A stretch of DNA of 64,000 nucleotides from an uncultured archaeon (GTDB lineage Archaea; Asgardarchaeota; Thorarchaeia; Thorarchaeales; Thorarchaeaceae): positions 128,001 through 192,000 of the forward strand of contig CAYYQL010000001.1 in the NCBI GenBank assembly GCA_964473825.1, given 5' to 3'. Below are positions 12,527-36,792 of this stretch, piece by piece. The translations under genes were made by a program, and so were the position numbers. Below the pieces are notes generated by a model. The model did no database searches and was not told where the DNA came from. It worked only from the letters and a program-made list of their open reading frames with translations. The first letter of the stretch is position 1. The number at the start of each line of letters is the position of its first letter.

Positions 12527-13483
12527 CTAATGGGAAGCAGTGGCAGTTTCTGCCTCTTCGCGTGCCTTGAGGCGGTTCATCTTCTCTAACACACGGCGTA
12601 TATGATCAGTCATGTGACTCGGAACCGTCACTCGATAATCGGAAGGCAAGTCTTCTAAGACATGAAGAATCTTCTCAAGAGTAATCCTCTTCATAGTCCT
12701 ACATACTGCAGTCGGCTTTGCAGCCATGATTATCTTGTCAGGATGATCAGCCTGAAGCTGCTCTACTAAGCCTAACTCAGTGGCTATGATGAACTTTCGG
12801 GCTGAAGACTCAGCAACAACCTGAACCATTTTCCCCGTCGAACCAACAATATCCGATACGTCTTGAACCTCCGGAGGACATTCCGGATGGGCAATAGCAA
12901 TAGCATCAGGATGCTCGTCCTTCAGTCGAGTGATATCGTCTGGCACGAATTGGAGGTGAACATAGCAGCTCCCGCGAGGTTCTATGTCTACAATTTCACA
13001 GTCAGTCTGCCTCCGAACATACTCAGCTAGATTCCTGTCTGGACCGAAGAGAACCTGTGAAGCACCAAGAGATTCGATGACCTCGACGGCATTGCTGGAA
13101 GTGCATATGACGTCACATTCGGCCTTGGTCTCTGCAGTCGTGTTGACATAGACTACTACTGGAGCATCAGGATACTCTCTCCGTCGTGAACGAATCTTCT
13201 CAGGATGGATCCAAGCAGCCAAGGGGCAAAGAGCATCTGAATCCGGGATGTAGACCGGGATGTCCGTCAAGACAGCCGACATTTCTGCCATAAATCGTAC
13301 CCCTGCAAAGATGACCATATCAAAGCCCTCAATCTCTGATGATTTCCTAGCGAGCTGCAGTGAATCACCAACGAAATCTGCTATCTGTTGCACTTCAAGC
13401 GTTTGATAATTGTGAGCTAGGATGAGTGCATTACGCTTTGCTTTCATTTCGACAATGCGTTTCTGAAGTTCGTTGAGTTTCAT
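12527..13483 (-). CDS. nadA: Quinolinate synthase
   Basis: LAHNYQ, GDSLQL, GVRFMAE, YVNT, CTSSNA, CYVH, HPEC, three cluster Cys. Confidence 0.95.
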   Translation of the reverse strand: MKLNELQKRIVEMKAKRNALILAHNYQTLEVQQIADFVGDSLQLARKSSEIEGFDMVIFAGVRFMAEMSAVLTDIPVYIPDSDALCPLAAWIHPEKIRSRRREYPDAPVVVYVNTTAETKAECDVICTSSNAVEVIESLGASQVLFGPDRNLAEYVRRQTDCEIVDIEPRGSCYVHLQFVPDDITRLKDEHPDAIAIAHPECPPEVQDVSDIVGSTGKMVQVVAESSARKFIIATELGLVEQLQADHPDKIIMAAKPTAVCRTMKRITLEKILHVLEDLPSDYRVTVPSHMTDHIRRVLEKMNRLKAREEAETATASH

Positions 13484-13542
13484 CCTTGGTCAAATCCGTC
13501 ATAATTAAGCATCAAAGGGGGTATTTTAACAAAATCTCAACC

Positions 13543-13584
13543 GGCAATAATTGACCCATCAATGAAGCCTCGGCAATAATTGCC
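13543..13584. promoter_or_regulatory. Paired palindromic operators GGCAATAATTG(A/C)C in the nadA/nadK divergent intergenic region
   Basis: GGCAATAATTGAC at 13543-13555 and GGCAATAATTGCC at 13572-13584 (GGCAAT-A-ATTGCC inverted repeat). Confidence 0.6.
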
Positions 13585-13680
13585 CAAGAGTGTGAGTGTA
13601 ATCACTCTTACAATTTGGCACTCAATTTAAGAGGGTAAACTCAAACGTCAAGACACGGCCCCGTCTGGGAGGAATGAAAC

Positions 13681-14742
13681 ACGAAGATTGGTTTGATTTC
13701 CGGGAATGAGTCAAGCATGATTCAGGACGCCAAGTCAGTCCTGTACCTGTTGAATCAGGAGGGGGCCGACGTCATTCTGGAATATGCGCTGGCAGAAGCC
13801 TTAGGTTCGTCGGGTACACAGCTTGATGAGATAGATGCGGATATCCTGGCTATCGTTGGCTCTGACCGAACAGTCCTTAACACGCTACTGAAGATGGGCG
13901 ACTCCCCAATCCCGATTCTGCCCATTTCTTCGCGAGGGCAGCCAGACTTCTTCTTTGACGTTACAACAGGCAATTTCGAACTTGCCGTCGAAGACTTGAT
14001 TGCTGGCGAGTGGACTGAAGATCATCGTTCTCGGCTTTCAATCACTGTTGGCGATAGGGTATTTCCATCCGTACTCAATGAGGTGGCCATCTTCGCGAAA
14101 CGTAATGCTACACTGATTAGGTATTCACTGAATCTCGATGGAGAGGAATTCTGGAAAGACGGTAGTGACGGCCTTATCATAGCCACTCCTACCGGGAGTA
14201 CAGCCTACTCCTTGAGTACAGGTGGTCCCATAGTGCTATCTCCTGCCTCTGTTCTCTCTGTGATACCGGTGAACAGCACAAATCCAGCAAGAAGACCACT
14301 TATTGTATCAGACAATGTAGTAGTCGAGATTCGCAACCTGACCAGCCCGGTCATGGTAGAGGCTATACTAGATGGGCAGCTGAGGCATAACGTGAACTCT
14401 GGCCCGATCATTGCTAGAAGAGCAGATAGCGATGCAATATTCGTGAAACTTACTGAAGAGAGAATTGCCGCTCTACGCGGCAAGCTGCAAAAGAAAACAG
14501 ACATCCTTGAGGATCTTGCTCAAGATCTACCTCCCAGTGCGAAGCTCGTACTCAAAGTGCTGGAATACCATGAAAAACTGACAGCCAGACAGATTACAGA
14601 GGAAACCATGCTATCTGCGAGAACAGTAAGACATGCTCTCTCCATCCTGATGGCTGAAGGACTGGTCAAGAAGCACCTGTCACTCCGCGACAGCAGACGA
14701 GGACTATTTATGGCTGTCAAGCCAATCGAGCGCCAATCCTAG
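13681..14742 (+). CDS. NAD-kinase-family protein fused to a C-terminal winged HTH
   Basis: LNEV, DGLIIATPTGSTAYSLSTGGP, LDG; C-terminal LPPSAKLVLKVL...RTVRHALSIL...G wHTH. GGDGT is altered to GSDRT. Start uncertain (ACG 13681 or TTG 13693). Confidence 0.85.
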   Translation, partial: TKIGLISGNESSMIQDAKSVLYLLNQEGADVILEYALAEALGSSGTQLDEIDADILAIVGSDRTVLNTLLKMGDSPIPILPISSRGQPDFFFDVTTGNFELAVEDLIAGEWTEDHRSRLSITVGDRVFPSVLNEVAIFAKRNATLIRYSLNLDGEEFWKDGSDGLIIATPTGSTAYSLSTGGPIVLSPASVLSVIPVNSTNPARRPLIVSDNVVVEIRNLTSPVMVEAILDGQLRHNVNSGPIIARRADSDAIFVKLTEERIAALRGKLQKKTDILEDLAQDLPPSAKLVLKVLEYHEKLTARQITEETMLSARTVRHALSILMAEGLVKKHLSLRDSRRGLFMAVKPIERQS

Positions 14743-14755
14743 TAGATGATAAACC

Positions 14756-16891
14756 ATGACACTAATAGAACAACTCCGGGAAGATGCCTCCACAAAAGTG
14801 ATTCAGGATTTCTTCTCCCGGGTCTCGGCACATTCTTCATCCGAAGGAGGATCTGCTGTTTCAGACTTGGAGGGGCCATTGAAACGAAGCATGGAAATTG
14901 CAGTCTTACAGGCCAGAGAAGCCATCGATCAGGATATCGAGGGATTAGAACATGGTGAGAAGGTGAGAGAAACCTTACGCAAAATCTTTCTGAGCGAGGT
15001 AGACGGATTATCGTTGCAGGAATATCTCGATGCACTGGCAATGTGTTGCTATGGTTATATCTTCGGAAATTTCGATGAGGAAGACCTTCGATATGTATAC
15101 CGATACTCTCTCGGGAAGCTCCCTCATCAAGGCGTAGATACGCTTCTGAAGAGGGCCCTTCTTCTCATCGAAATCGCATCTGGAAAGGACGCGAGGCAGG
15201 CAATGACTTGTCTAAGAGAATGGATTGCGTTCTTGGGATCTCCCTACTGTATGCCGGAGGATTTCAAAGAACCTGCCACAGAACTTGGCTTGAATCTGGG
15301 AACAGCCCTGGAATCTGATGACTTCAGACTCACAGATTCCATCCGCAGATATCCGGAGTACTTGGAGGAGGCTCTGCGGGGCAAGGAATACTTGGATGTC
15401 TATAAGGCAACTCGAAGCTGGCTGCCTGACGTGCTGTCATCTAGGATTCTAGGTATATTCCGAAAGAGAGTCAATCAAGAAGCACAAGAGAAGATTGGCC
15501 CAGACACAGGTGTTTCAGAGGCATATGCTGTCATTCAGAGAGTCTATAAGAAGAGGGAATTCATGAGTGCTGAAGGTAGAGTACTGCCCATCCGCCTGCA
15601 AGATCTTGATTCGCCACCTCCTCCTGAAGCAGTTGAACCCGTCCTCTTTGAGATGATTCCACAGAAACTGCGAGTAGAACTGATGTCGTCAATTGCGTAT
15701 TCTAGAAAGACCAAGCAAGTAGAGATAATATTCCTTGGTGGGCCAGAAATTGGCAGAAGTGGCATCTTGGTGAGGACCGATACCAGTGCCATCCTCCTTG
15801 ATTACGGCCTTTCAGTTGCTAACCAGAGAATCCCTGAATGGGTTCCTGAACTTGAGATGATCGACTCTGTGCTTATCACACACTCACATCTTGATCACGT
15901 TGGAGGACTTCCTGCACTCTATGAGCACTATTCGGGGAAGTGGTGTGCAAGCGGGGTCACAGGGGCAGTCTCGATGACTCTTCTTGAGGATGCCCTCAAG
16001 GTAGGGACTCCACTTCCGCCAAGACGCAATGATAAGTATGACATGGTCTCGTGGTTCAATCGGACGAACATAGACAAAGTCAAGAGAAACTACGTACAAC
16101 TAGAAACGGGGACAGCAAGCGAATTAGCAGGAGGGATTGTTGTCACCCCGATTGAGGCAAGACACATTCCCGGAAGCTTGGCTTTCATCGTGGATGTGGA
16201 GGGAACCAGAATTCTCTACACAGGCGACTTCAATCTTGACAAATCCGTTCTCTTCCACGGGGCTACACTACCTACAGACTGTGATTTGACCATCTTTGAT
16301 GGCACATATTGGGAAAGGGAGGATTTCGACAGAAGACAGGTATCTGACCAGGTCTCGCAGACCATAGCCAGACACGGTCCAGTCATTATTCCAACCTTCG
16401 CCGTTGGCAGGTCACAGGAAGTCCTTGTCATGCTGGACGAACTCGGGATAACCTCATCGAGAAACGTGATTGTGGCCGGCATGGCAGAGCGAGTGACCAA
16501 GCTGACAGGGTACGATGGCGACTGGACAGGCATGAAAAAGAACAAAGTCGTTCTCGAAGATGACGACATTCTGGTGGCTGGAGGCGGAATGCTCGACGGC
16601 GGCTTTGCCAAAATGCACTATAATGAGCATCGACATAACCCAGATGCAGCTGTTATCTTGTGTGGGTACCTTGCACCACGCACAACTGGATGGAATCTCT
16701 TGCATGGACACGAAGATCACAAGTGTGCTGTTGAATATGCAAGGCTTAGTGCCCACTCATCAGCCTCAAGGCTTACAGAGTTCGTTGCTTCTTGCACGGG
16801 CAAGAAGGCCATGGTTCATACTCCAATCAAGAAGACCGGTGGCGATATCCTACTACCCCAATATAGGGAGAGGATCGTGCTTGACGTCTAG
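14756..16891 (+). CDS. beta-CASP MBL-fold ribonuclease-like protein with a ~320-aa N-terminal helical extension
   Basis: FLGG..EIGRS, LLDYG, THSHLDH, HIPGS, YTGDF, DGTY, FAVGRSQE, LSAHS. Confidence 0.85.
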   Translation: MTLIEQLREDASTKVIQDFFSRVSAHSSSEGGSAVSDLEGPLKRSMEIAVLQAREAIDQDIEGLEHGEKVRETLRKIFLSEVDGLSLQEYLDALAMCCYGYIFGNFDEEDLRYVYRYSLGKLPHQGVDTLLKRALLLIEIASGKDARQAMTCLREWIAFLGSPYCMPEDFKEPATELGLNLGTALESDDFRLTDSIRRYPEYLEEALRGKEYLDVYKATRSWLPDVLSSRILGIFRKRVNQEAQEKIGPDTGVSEAYAVIQRVYKKREFMSAEGRVLPIRLQDLDSPPPPEAVEPVLFEMIPQKLRVELMSSIAYSRKTKQVEIIFLGGPEIGRSGILVRTDTSAILLDYGLSVANQRIPEWVPELEMIDSVLITHSHLDHVGGLPALYEHYSGKWCASGVTGAVSMTLLEDALKVGTPLPPRRNDKYDMVSWFNRTNIDKVKRNYVQLETGTASELAGGIVVTPIEARHIPGSLAFIVDVEGTRILYTGDFNLDKSVLFHGATLPTDCDLTIFDGTYWEREDFDRRQVSDQVSQTIARHGPVIIPTFAVGRSQEVLVMLDELGITSSRNVIVAGMAERVTKLTGYDGDWTGMKKNKVVLEDDDILVAGGGMLDGGFAKMHYNEHRHNPDAAVILCGYLAPRTTGWNLLHGHEDHKCAVEYARLSAHSSASRLTEFVASCTGKKAMVHTPIKKTGGDILLPQYRERIVLDV

Positions 16892-35506: not shown

Positions 35507-36292
35507 TCAAACTATATTCACTCCGTGAGGGCTCAGAACGGCTCTTCGAATGGAACCATAGATGGAAGCGAGGGTGTACTCTCCCGTCACCCCCTTGATG
35601 GCAGAAGACCGCTTTATCTCAAGGACTGTGCCCTCACCCCTTGCAACAATATGCTGTACTGCATCATCTGATGTGGGATCAGCTATGAGAACTGCACGAG
35701 TCTTGTCGAAGCCAATCCCTGCTAGGGCCACAATCGCATGTGAGTTCACGTTTCTAGGAAACATACTGCATATTCCTCTCGCGGGTCCATCGTATAGTAC
35801 GGTGGGCTTCGTGATGTCTGCCGTACTATATTTGTCTGTGTAGCTGAAGTCTATGTTCCGGGGGTTCTTTGTAGTGGTTATTGTGACTTCGTCAAGTGTG
35901 TGCTTCGCATCAAAAAGCCCATCCATTCCCAACAATGCGCCGTGTGGAATGAATAAACGTGTTCCATTCGTCGCACAGATATCCCCGAGCTCGTCATAGA
36001 ACTCTGCATCAGCCAGAGCTGTCACTGACAAAACCATCAAATCATTCGATTTCAAAATCTTGGGAGCCAACTCTCTGACAACAGCTGAGTTTGCTGCTTC
36101 CACAATTAGGTCAACAGCCCGATTCCCAATTTGCTCGGGACTGCTAAGCACCCTTCTCTCATCGAGCGCTTTCGTCTTTTCCGGATCTGCGTCAAGCGCA
36201 AAATCAAGAGAAACGTTCTCATCATTTTCAGTCATCTCATACACGTAAAATCCAATTCGTCCGAATCCAATTAGACCGATTTTCTTATCCAT
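35507..36292 (-). CDS. Aspartate-dehydrogenase-like (NadX/DUF108) oxidoreductase
   Basis: IGFGRIG, VEAA, LSVTALAD, GALLGMD, TKNP, FPRNVN. Confidence 0.8.
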   Translation of the reverse strand: MDKKIGLIGFGRIGFYVYEMTENDENVSLDFALDADPEKTKALDERRVLSSPEQIGNRAVDLIVEAANSAVVRELAPKILKSNDLMVLSVTALADAEFYDELGDICATNGTRLFIPHGALLGMDGLFDAKHTLDEVTITTTKNPRNIDFSYTDKYSTADITKPTVLYDGPARGICSMFPRNVNSHAIVALAGIGFDKTRAVLIADPTSDDAVQHIVARGEGTVLEIKRSSAIKGVTGEYTLASIYGSIRRAVLSPHGVNIV

Positions 36293-36792
36293 AGTATCAC
36301 CAGAAATCACTCTGTATTCGCCTTTGAATATCTACAGCAATGTAAGATTTTTATAATATTCCGATATTTAACTCTTGGCGACAAATATTCTAGGAATATT
36401 ATTGACCGATTGGTAATGGGGCGCTTCATGTGTATTTCAGTGTGATCACAACCGTTTCCCTGGTCTCGTTTGAACTGACAATCATAGAAACGTTGGGAAA
36501 GACATCAATGACACAAAAAAGGTGTAACTGCCGTCATCAGAGAAGCGCAAAAACAGCCACGTTTTCCCACATTCAGCCATTCCAATGTAATGGCCTCACA
36601 AATCCTGACTCTTTGTCTAATGACAGGGGATTGCTTTCACTCGGGTTTCAGATGAGCCGTAGGCGCAAGAAAGTTTCTCGGCGCCTCACCTCAGCACTAA
36701 AGAGAAAATAAGCTCGAAAACCGCGATGCTGACATTATTTATCCATTATTGCAATAGGGAAGTCTATTTTACTCTAAACGACACTTTTATAT

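What the first reader, a model, noticed from the sequence alone, without database searches (positions are those of the whole stretch)
13484..14742. Probable NAD-sensing transcription factor: degenerate NAD kinase fused to wHTH, divergent from nadA, with two palindromic operators
Seen in sequence: the NAD-kinase catalytic GGDGT motif reads VGSDRT and the usual G.LGFL motif reads GQPDFF, while the NAD-binding NE and TPTGSTAY motifs are intact and a wHTH is fused at the C-terminus. The intergenic region with nadA carries GGCAATAATTGAC (13543) and GGCAATAATTGCC (13572), just upstream of a TTAAAATA TATA-like box for nadA (~13522-13529, minus strand). Established: known NAD regulators (NadR, NrtR, NiaR, NadQ) use other sensor domains. 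Inference: a kinase-fold NAD(P) sensor controls de novo NAD synthesis. Similar fusions may exist in other archaea, but I know of no functional characterisation.
Basis: partly seen in the sequence, partly recalled or inferred. Interest (0 to 1): 0.7.

Follow-up and report, generated by a model that had tools for sequence, protein, structure and literature searches.

The report
NAD-kinase-derived regulator of archaeal nadA
A Thorarchaeota (Asgard) archaeon carries a second, remodelled copy of NAD kinase fused to a DNA-binding winged helix, head-to-head with the NAD-synthesis gene nadA across two conserved palindromes, so it is very probably a transcription factor, not described in the papers I could search, that couples NAD synthesis to the NAD(P) pool.

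Summary
The protein has a full NAD-kinase fold (AF2 pLDDT 93; TM 0.88-0.90 to solved NadKs) followed by a C-terminal winged helix.

The phosphoryl-donor motifs are remodelled: GGDGT reads GSDRT and NxGxxGFL reads SSRGQPDFF. The new forms are themselves over 90% conserved in 117 orthologues. Every NAD-contacting motif is kept, including the catalytic Asp.

A canonical NadK lies elsewhere in the genome. The gene is divergent from nadA in all 25 sampled Thorarchaeota-family loci where both genes could be located, and in three other Asgard families. In two further families it sits beside a nicotinate-phosphoribosyltransferase-like gene.

The GGCAA-N3-TTGCC box is 98% conserved in its arms against 40% for flanking DNA. 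It sits at a gap-free distance from the nadA TATA box. It is the only intergenic copy in the 3.27-Mb genome. It is missing from 7 of 10 related loci that have lost the gene.

Still inferred: DNA binding, the effector (NAD(H) or NADP(H)), loss of kinase activity, and whether the protein activates or represses.

I found no paper describing this family. The scan has reported the same family many times on other genomes. In passing: the gene probably starts at an ACG codon.

The parts
12527..13483 (-). nadA (quinolinate synthase), the predicted target gene
   Evidence: PF02445 at 9.7e-101 and TIGR00550 at 1.9e-99, above cut-off. It is divergent from the regulator in all sampled orthologous loci where both genes could be located.
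13522..13529 (-). TATA-like box of nadA (TTAAAATA on the minus strand)
   Evidence: Conserved as TTAAAA/TTAATA in 25 Thorarchaeota-family loci, 39-46 nt before the nadA start.
13533..13540 (-). Conserved block TTGAGATT (minus strand) between TATA box and site 1; possibly a BRE
   Evidence: 60-99% column conservation. Also kept in loci that lost the regulator. Its function is inferred.
13543..13555 (.). Operator site 1, GGCAATAATTGAC (one arm mismatch), 13 bp from the nadA TATA box
   Evidence: Arms are 86% conserved in 25 loci. No gaps between it and the TATA box.
13572..13584 (.). Operator site 2, GGCAATAATTGCC, a perfect 6-1-6 palindrome, 29 bp centre-to-centre from site 1
   Evidence: Arms are 98% conserved, against 57% for the spacer and 40% for the inter-site DNA. 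It is the only intergenic exact GGCAA-N3-TTGCC among 11 in the genome. It is the only pair of sites with this 29-bp spacing in the genome; three weaker pairs at other spacings (24-32 bp) were not followed up.
13626..13632 (+). TATA-like box of the regulator gene (ATTTAAG)
   Evidence: Over 90% conserved in 25 loci. Its distance from site 2 varies, from about 6 to 45 bp.
13668..13672 (+). Shine-Dalgarno sequence GGAGG
   Evidence: Conserved 7-9 nt before the aligned start position in orthologues.
13681..13683 (+). Probable ACG start codon
   Evidence: It aligns with ATG in 10 orthologous loci, TTG in 2 and TCG in 1, and is ACG in 14 of 27. An in-frame TGA lies at 13675-13677. The conserved [KR]-I-G-[VI]-x-S-G strand is encoded after it. 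That stretch is strand 1 of the fold, with pLDDT 97.
13681..14742 (+). Regulator gene (353 aa counted from ACG; the mechanical ORF call is 13693..14742)
13858..13872 (+). Remodelled motif I, G-S-D-R-T (canonical G-G-D-G-T)
   Evidence: [IV]GSD[RK]x in 117 orthologues. In canonical NadKs both Gly are 100% conserved.
13927..13959 (+). Remodelled motif II, SSRGQPDFFFD (canonical N.G..GFL..)
   Evidence: S.GQPDFLF[DE] is over 90% conserved in orthologues. The canonical N, G and G are lost.
14077..14082 (+). NE motif (N133, E134), which contacts NAD
   Evidence: N is invariant and E/D 100% in the fused group. Residue roles are taken from PMC9763689.
14185..14208 (+). Conserved region II, TPTGSTAY, which contacts NAD
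   Evidence: Kept at canonical levels in the fused group.
14533..14715 (+). C-terminal winged helix-turn-helix (about aa 285-345)
   Evidence: Pfam MarR_2/GntR/HTH_5. AF2 gives H-H-H-strand-strand with pLDDT 91-97. R314 and T315 in the third helix are over 90% conserved in 82 diverse fusions. The weak nearest solved relatives are the TFE winged helix, Lrs14 and MarR.

Best explanation
The gene encodes a metabolite-sensing transcription factor built from a duplicated NAD kinase.

The NadK-derived body keeps the complete NAD(P)-binding pocket. Its phosphoryl-donor site (motifs I and II) has been rebuilt, so it most likely binds NAD(H) or NADP(H) as a signal rather than turning it over.

The C-terminal winged helices of an oligomer (NadKs are dimers or tetramers) bind the two GGCAA-N3-TTGCC palindromes. 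These lie 29 bp apart and immediately upstream of the nadA BRE/TATA region. Through them the protein sets transcription of nadA, the Fe-S enzyme that makes quinolinate, and of its own gene.

Shown here: the fold, the motif pattern, a canonical NadK paralogue, synteny with NAD genes in six Asgard families, a conserved operator at a fixed distance from the nadA promoter, and absence of the operator from most related loci that lack the gene.

Inferred: DNA binding by this protein, the ligand, loss of kinase activity, and the sign of regulation. My lean is about 55:45 for activation of nadA by the ligand-free form over NAD(P)-dependent repression.
For: 1. Fold. AF2 gives pLDDT 93.1 and pTM 0.77. 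Foldseek top hits are all NAD kinases, at E 1e-25 and TM 0.88-0.90 relative to the target. None of them has the wHTH extension.

2. Motifs. All residues conserved in the NAD-binding half of canonical NadKs (N133, E134, D163-G164, T169..Y176, S179, G181-G182-P183, D231-G232) are kept at equal frequency in 55 fused-degenerate representatives. G61, G63, N83, G85 and G89 of the donor site are lost. The new motifs are over 90% conserved in 117 orthologues.

3. A canonical 301-aa NadK lies on contig 11. NCBIfam NadK equivalogs score 138 bits against a 326-bit cut-off.

4. Synteny. The gene is divergent from nadA in all 25 f1 (Thorarchaeota-family) loci where both genes could be located, and in families f2, f15 and f5 (in f5 with nadA-nadC). 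It is in an operon with a NAPRTase-like gene in f20 and convergent with one in f16.

5. Operator. Site 2 arms are 98% conserved against 40% for neighbouring DNA, with no indel between the nadA TATA box and site 2 in 25 loci. In four of the five f5 loci the single exact GCAA-N3-TTGC in about 6-9 kb lies in the reg-nadA spacer; the fifth has a one-mismatch copy there. One f20 locus has the site upstream of the NAPRTase-like gene.

6. It is the only intergenic exact site and the only site pair with 29-bp spacing in the 3.27-Mb genome.

7. Of 10 Thorarchaeota-family loci where the gene is missing between nadA and the beta-CASP gene, 7 have no site within one mismatch. The other 3 keep relics, one of them with a truncated wHTH remnant.

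8. The third-helix residues R314 and T315 are nearly invariant across 82 fusions, which fits the conserved operator core.
Against: - No binding, ligand or expression data exist.
- The five residues named as critical for NadK catalysis and NAD recognition, including the GGDG Asp, are all present (PMC9763689). Residual or altered kinase activity is therefore not excluded.
- Both operators lie upstream of BRE/TATA, so simple occlusion is not obvious and the sign is unresolved.
- Repeated loss of the gene with nadA retained shows it is dispensable.
- nadC and nadX have no site, so the regulon seems to be one gene plus itself.
- In f16, neighbourhood to the NAPRTase-like gene is only convergent, and no GCAA-N3-TTGC site was seen there.
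Confidence: 0.75

Rival explanations
1. It is a bifunctional 'trigger enzyme': still an active NAD kinase that also binds DNA, like RbkR, BirA or NadR.
For: The catalytic Asp (D62) and all NAD-contacting residues are kept (roles from PMC9763689). A sister subclade of fusions, including Micrarchaeota and Diapherotrites proteins, keeps an intact GGDGT and NCGxxGF. The fusion therefore probably began as a working enzyme.
Against: Both Gly of GGDG that are 100% conserved in 55 canonical NadKs are replaced by Ser and Arg, and the three conserved N/G/G of motif II are replaced. The gene scores far below every NadK equivalog cut-off. A canonical NadK paralogue is present. The gene has been lost repeatedly in relatives.
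Confidence: 0.15
2. The protein is a transcription factor, but its effector is not the NAD(P) pool. It could be a precursor or related nucleotide (NaAD, NMN, ADP-ribose, ATP), or a redox ratio (NADH/NAD+).
For: The donor-site remodelling introduces a conserved Arg/Lys and Asp (GSD[RK], QPD) near where the 2'-OH and phosphoryl groups sit in NadK. That could change what is bound. NrtR senses ADP-ribose rather than NAD (PMC2330246, found).
Against: Every residue that recognises adenine, nicotinamide and the nicotinamide ribose in NadK is retained. The simplest ligand is therefore a complete dinucleotide.
Confidence: 0.2
3. The palindromes belong to another regulator or to the promoter itself, and the wHTH of this protein serves another purpose such as protein contacts or non-specific DNA binding.
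For: The half-site next to the BRE-like block (TTGCC-G-N-TTGAGATT) persists in several loci that lack the gene.
Against: The full palindrome is present in 27 of 27 loci with the gene and absent from 7 of 10 without it. The same core motif follows the gene to different targets in other Asgard families. The recognition-helix residues are nearly invariant.
Confidence: 0.07

Closest known systems
RbkR, the archaeal riboflavin kinase/wHTH regulator (Rodionova et al. 2017, PMC5397151)
   Same: An archaeal cofactor-pathway regulator made by fusing a small-molecule kinase of that pathway to a winged helix. It was found through synteny and conserved palindromes upstream of biosynthesis genes. Cofactor control is at the transcription-factor level in a domain that lacks the bacterial riboswitches.
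   Different: RbkR is described as a bifunctional, active CTP-dependent riboflavin kinase. Its kinase fold is unrelated to NadK (from my own knowledge). Here the wHTH is C-terminal, the donor site is rebuilt, and a separate canonical kinase exists.
NrtR, the Nudix-related regulator of bacterial NAD metabolism (PMC2330246; PMC6800001)
   Same: [quoted passage not shown] It controls nadA/B/C and salvage genes. The enzyme domain is often catalytically impaired and acts as the sensor.
   Different: The sensor is a Nudix fold that binds ADP-ribose, and the family is bacterial. Pfam reported no Nudix family for this protein at E up to 0.01.
NadR (enterobacterial HTH-NMNAT-RNK) and NiaR (PMC2330245)
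   Same: They control de novo NAD synthesis genes, including nadA, through an end-product or vitamin signal. NadR is an enzyme-HTH fusion.
   Different: The folds are unrelated and both act as bacterial repressors. Neither uses an NAD-kinase fold.
ThiR, the archaeal thiamine regulator with a ThiN-like sensor domain (Rodionov et al. 2017, J Bacteriol; recalled from memory, not in the searchable library)
   Same: An archaeal wHTH regulator whose sensor is a catalytically altered copy of an enzyme of the regulated pathway.
   Different: A different enzyme fold and a different cofactor.
Canonical NAD kinase (NadK/PpnK; e.g. PDB 1SUW, 4HAO, 7QVS)
   Same: The same two-domain fold and the same NAD-binding motifs.
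   Different: Solved NadKs have no DNA-binding domain. Here motifs I and II are rebuilt and the NCBIfam equivalog cut-offs are not met.

Membership tests
NAD kinase (NadK/PpnK, EC 2.7.1.23) | Two-domain NadK fold | tested here: met
   Foldseek E 1e-25, TM 0.88-0.90 relative to the target, against 4HAO, 2AN1, 1SUW and 7QVS. phmmer gives 5e-22 to 7MH7.
NAD kinase (NadK/PpnK, EC 2.7.1.23) | GGDG(T) signature with both glycines | tested here: not met
   It reads G-S-D-R-T, and the Asp is kept. Both Gly are 100% conserved in 55 canonical representatives.
NAD kinase (NadK/PpnK, EC 2.7.1.23) | Motif II, N-x-G-x-x-G-F-L | tested here: not met
   It reads S-S-R-G-Q-P-D-F-F. The canonical N (84%), G (98%) and G (98%) are replaced.
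NAD kinase (NadK/PpnK, EC 2.7.1.23) | NE/D motif and conserved region II (TPTGSTAY) | tested here: met
   N133-E134 and T169..Y176 are intact.
NAD kinase (NadK/PpnK, EC 2.7.1.23) | Score above a curated NadK equivalog cut-off | tested here: not met
   The best is NF002984 at 138.3 bits against a cut-off of 326. All 18 NadK models are below cut-off.
NAD kinase (NadK/PpnK, EC 2.7.1.23) | Phosphorylation of NAD by ATP or polyphosphate | not testable with these tools
   An enzyme assay is needed.
Winged-helix (MarR-like) transcription factor | wHTH domain | tested here: met
   Pfam MarR_2 scores 27.3 bits against a cut-off of 27, with weaker GntR/HTH_5/HTH_24 hits. AF2 gives three helices plus a two-strand wing, pLDDT 91-97.
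Winged-helix (MarR-like) transcription factor | Conserved palindromic operator in the promoter region of neighbouring genes | tested here: met
   GGCAA-N3-TTGCC is present in 27 of 27 orthologous spacers with arms 98% conserved.
Winged-helix (MarR-like) transcription factor | Sequence-specific DNA binding by the protein | not testable with these tools
   EMSA or footprinting is needed.
NrtR / NadR / NiaR (known NAD regulators) | Nudix, NMNAT-RNK or 3H sensor domain | tested here: not met
   Pfam and NCBIfam scans report only the NAD_kinase_C domain, NadK models and weak HTH-type matches.
RbkR-type bifunctional kinase/regulator | Riboflavin kinase domain fused to a wHTH, with enzyme activity | tested here: not met
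   No riboflavin kinase domain was reported. It works like RbkR in principle but is not a member.

The most novel reading that the evidence does not exclude
This would be the first NAD(P)-responsive transcription factor family of Archaea. It is a pseudo-kinase sensor that arose from a bifunctional NadK-wHTH 'trigger enzyme', still intact in DPANN lineages. After duplication it lost phosphoryl-donor binding but kept the NAD pocket. It now acts from a fixed position around -50/-79 as a ligand-controlled activator of nadA, and of NAPRTase-like genes in other Asgard families. In about half of the orthologues its own translation starts at ACG.
Probability: 0.4. Interest if true: 0.75.

Novelty: new variant of a known kind. 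Interest (0 to 1): 0.62.

Why it matters
How Archaea regulate NAD synthesis is essentially uncharted. The four known regulator families (NadR, NiaR, NrtR, NadQ) are bacterial.

This gives a concrete candidate that can be expressed. It comes with a defined 13-bp operator, a one-gene regulon and a short list of candidate ligands, so the question can be tested directly by EMSA, ITC and a kinase assay.

It is also a clean example of an enzyme becoming a sensor. Both stages appear to survive: fusions with intact motifs in DPANN and remodelled ones in Asgard and Bathyarchaeota.

Current annotations call these proteins NAD kinase, sugar kinase, MarR regulator or hypothetical protein. Metabolic reconstructions of Asgard genomes may therefore count a kinase that is not one.

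Tried and rejected
- Complex prediction with two copies of the protein (alignment A1): no verdict, score 0.39 against a mark of 0.42. This is not evidence either way.
- The look-up of sequencing runs: the only holders are DNA runs from microbial-mat metagenomes and no RNA holder is listed. I therefore laid no reads and have no transcription start data.
- Regulon extension. Genome-wide, 11 exact GGCAA-N3-TTGCC sites exist (about 3 expected from base composition), but 10 lie inside ORFs. No other pair with 29-bp spacing exists. No site lies upstream of nadC, nadX or the NAPRTase-like gene on contig 51.
- Literature. Four searches for a NadK-HTH regulator or an archaeal NAD regulon found no description. 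The library lacks many subscription papers, so this is 'not found', not 'absent'. The ThiR paper could not be retrieved.
- The f16 loci (L039, L050) show no GCAA-N3-TTGC site near the gene, so the operator there is unknown.
I could not measure where R63 and D89 sit relative to the NAD pocket, so the idea that the Arg reads the 2'-phosphate of NADP stays speculation.
- Rejected: simple decay into a pseudogene. The frame is open, the remodelled motifs are conserved, and there are 117 full-length orthologues at 53-64% identity.

Full report
**Observation**

The window carries nadA (12527..13483, minus strand; PF02445 at 1e-100). Divergent from it is an ORF called mechanically at 13693..14742. The ORF product matches NAD_kinase_C (3.7e-20) and a C-terminal MarR_2-type winged helix at aa 278-336, just over Pfam's cut-off. 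The N-terminal NadK Pfam domain is not detected. All 18 NCBIfam NadK models score far below their cut-offs; the best is 138 against 326 bits.

In the correct register, motif I is G-S-D-R-T against G-G-D-G-T, so the Asp is retained. The two palindromes lie at 13543-13555 (one mismatch) and 13572-13584 (a perfect 6-1-6). That is 2 matches against 0.17 expected, and none of 100 shuffles reached 2.

**Organism and family**

The nearest proteins are more than 100 full-length orthologues at 53-64% identity. NCBI attributes them to Thorarchaeota. They are annotated inconsistently as NAD kinase, sugar kinase, MarR regulator, wHTH regulator or hypothetical protein.

A search of 1.84 billion cluster representatives gives 79 clusters at E below 1e-30. 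About 70 of the listed representatives carry the C-terminal wHTH. Named members include Bathyarchaeota, Kariarchaeaceae, Micrarchaeota and Diapherotrites.

**Structure**

AF2 on an 82-sequence alignment gives pLDDT 93.1 and pTM 0.77. The model is a complete two-domain NadK body (residues 1-258), a long helix (261-280) and a three-helix, two-strand winged helix (285-345). Foldseek returns only NAD kinases, at E 1e-25 and TM up to 0.90 relative to the target. None has the extension. The wHTH alone has only weak sequence relatives among solved structures: the TFE winged helix, Lrs14 and MarR.

**What changed and what did not**

I compared 55 canonical (unfused, GGDG-intact) representatives with 55 fused-degenerate ones.

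- Kept at equal frequency: every residue conserved in the NAD-binding half, namely N133, E/D134, D163-G164, T169-P-T-G-S-T-A-Y176, S179, G181-G182-P183 and D231-G232.
- Lost: the donor-site residues G61, G63, T64, N83, G85 and G89.
- D62 is kept in 82% of the fused-degenerate group.

A review assigns the GGDG Asp to catalysis at the ribose 2' position, N/E to adenine and ribose, and T/Y of region II to adenine and nicotinamide (PMC9763689). All five are present here.

Within 117 Thorarchaeota orthologues the altered motifs are themselves fixed: [IV]GSD[RK]x and S.GQPDFLF[DE], each over 90%. The site was rebuilt, not left to decay.

Fusion and motif status go together. GGDG[TS] is kept in 14 of 69 fused representatives against 54 of 61 unfused.

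A quick FastTree on the kinase body, with motif I columns removed, gives three groupings:

- Canonical NadKs, including this genome's own, on one side.
- All fusions on the other side (support 89).
- Within the fusions, a subclade made up mostly of motif-intact proteins (97) and a nearly all-degenerate subclade (90).

This fits one fusion event followed by loss of the donor site. The tree is unrooted and quick, so I treat this as a lead.

**A working kinase exists elsewhere**

PF20143 hits three places in the 3.27-Mb, 96%-complete assembly:

- this gene;
- a 301-aa canonical NadK on contig 11, with GGDGT, NRGTVGFL, NE and TPCGSSAY;
- a 377-aa ATP-NAD-kinase-like protein on contig 7.

Many of the Thorarchaeota-family genomes that carry the fusion also show a second, canonical-length match.

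**Genomic linkage to NAD metabolism**

| Asgard family | Arrangement |
|---|---|
| f1 (Thorarchaeota family) | divergent from nadA in all 25 loci where both genes could be located |
| f2, f15 | divergent from nadA |
| f5 | divergent from a nadA-nadC operon |
| f20 | followed in an operon by a QRPTase_N/QRPTase_C (NAPRTase-like) gene |
| f16 | convergent with a NAPRTase-like gene |

Three other families (f8, f14, f22) showed no NAD gene next to the fusion.

**Operator**

In the alignment of 27 spacers the order, read in nadA sense, is:

1. site 2, GGCAA-N3-TTGCC;
2. 16 nt;
3. site 1, G[GT]CAA-N3-TTGCC;
4. a conserved TTGAGATT block;
5. the TATA box, TTAAAA or TTAATA;
6. about 40 nt to the start codon.

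In the 25 f1 loci the site 2 arms are 98% conserved, the 3-nt spacer 57%, the site 1 arms 86% and the DNA between sites 40%. There is no gap from the nadA TATA box to the end of site 2. By contrast, the distance from site 2 to the regulator's own TATA box (ATTTAAG, 13626-13632) varies from about 6 to 45 bp. The geometry is therefore fixed relative to nadA.

The same core follows the gene into other families:

- In four of the five f5 loci the only exact GCAA-N3-TTGC in about 6-9 kb lies in the reg-nadA spacer. The fifth has a one-mismatch copy there.
- One f20 locus has the site about 14 bp upstream of a TATA-like box of the NAPRTase-like gene.
- R314 and T315 in the third helix are nearly invariant in 82 fusions.

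In this genome, 11 exact GGCAA-N3-TTGCC sites exist. Only this one is intergenic, and it is the only pair with 29-bp spacing. nadC and nadX have no site.

**Natural loss experiment**

Ten Thorarchaeota-family genomes have nadA but no fusion gene. In nine of these loci nadA directly faces the 713-716-aa beta-CASP gene that follows the regulator in this window, so the regulator has been excised.

- Seven of the ten loci have no palindrome within one mismatch.
- Three keep relics. One of these also keeps a truncated wHTH remnant.

Operator and gene thus tend to appear and disappear together. The gene is also dispensable.

**Mechanism**

I conclude that this is a NadK-derived sensor and regulator of nadA that also autoregulates (confidence 0.75). 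The ligand is most simply NAD(H) or NADP(H). A conserved Arg/Lys in GSD[RK], lying beside the catalytic Asp that acts on the ribose 2' position (PMC9763689), makes NADP(H) attractive. I could not test this because no model coordinates were available.

The sign of regulation is open.

- For activation: both sites lie upstream of BRE/TATA at strictly fixed spacing. They are centred about 23.5 and 52.5 bp upstream of the TATA centre, which is about -50 and -79 if the TATA box is centred near -27. This is the layout of archaeal activators (from my own knowledge of Ptr2, TrmBL1 and SurR).
- For repression: the nadA promoter elements look the same in loci with and without the gene, the gene has been lost repeatedly, and all bacterial NAD regulators are repressors.

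I lean 55:45 towards activation by the ligand-free form.

**Comparison with known systems**

It works like RbkR (PMC5397151), NrtR (PMC2330246) and, from memory, ThiR. In each, an enzyme of the pathway is fused to a wHTH and used as the sensor. It is a member of none of them, and it fails three NadK membership features. I found no paper describing a NadK-wHTH regulator.

The scan has independently noted the same family in many other genomes. Its follow-ups reached the same reading, and some favoured an activator. I re-derived the evidence here on this window's own loci.

**In passing**

The conserved first strand ([KR]-I-G-[VI]-x-S-G, pLDDT 97) begins at 13681. The codon there is ACG, placed 8 nt after GGAGG and two codons after an in-frame TGA. 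The aligned codon is ACG in 14 of 27 orthologous loci, ATG in 10, TTG in 2 and TCG in 1. In several loci no canonical start lies between the upstream stop and the conserved strand. ACG very probably serves as the start codon.

Noticed in passing
window 13675-13695: The regulator's conserved N-terminal strand starts at an ACG codon (13681). It lies 8 nt after GGAGG and two codons after an in-frame TGA. The aligned codon is ACG in 14 of 27 orthologous loci, ATG in 10, TTG in 2 and TCG in 1. This is probably a non-canonical ACG start that gene callers miss; they call TTG 13693 or ATG 13717 instead.
   Followed up: partly
window 14756-16891 (+): A 711-aa metallo-beta-lactamase/beta-CASP protein (an aCPSF1/Cas14-like core behind a roughly 320-aa N-terminal extension with no family match) starts 13 nt after the regulator's stop, so it is probably co-transcribed. 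In most relatives that lost the regulator, this gene sits directly head-to-head with nadA (L053-L060).
   Followed up: partly
L056 3960-4400 (G152:C17): A relic of the regulator: only the last ~60 residues of the wHTH survive as a short ORF between nadA and the beta-CASP gene. Site 2 is one mismatch from consensus and site 1 is decayed.
   Followed up: partly
L055 2845-3055 and L058 2780-3045: Two genomes of one Thorarchaeota genus keep one or both operator boxes in front of nadA, although the regulator gene is gone from the locus and was not found elsewhere in these roughly 90%-complete assemblies.
   Followed up: partly
L003 1492-2625 (G000:C7): A third NAD_kinase_C-containing gene in this genome: a 377-aa ATP-NAD-kinase-like protein with an intact GGDGT and a long C-terminal extension. 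Its role is unknown.
   Followed up: no
window 35507-36310 (-): L-aspartate dehydrogenase (nadX, PF01958) lies 22 kb from nadA in the same window. It has no GGCAA-N3-TTGCC box upstream. nadC is on another contig (C2:30320-31174), apparently inside an operon.
   Followed up: partly
P0138, P0194 and relatives (Micrarchaeota, Diapherotrites): NadK-wHTH fusions of DPANN archaea keep intact GGDGT and NCGxxGF motifs. They may be true bifunctional kinase/regulators and possibly the only NadK of those small genomes.
   Followed up: no
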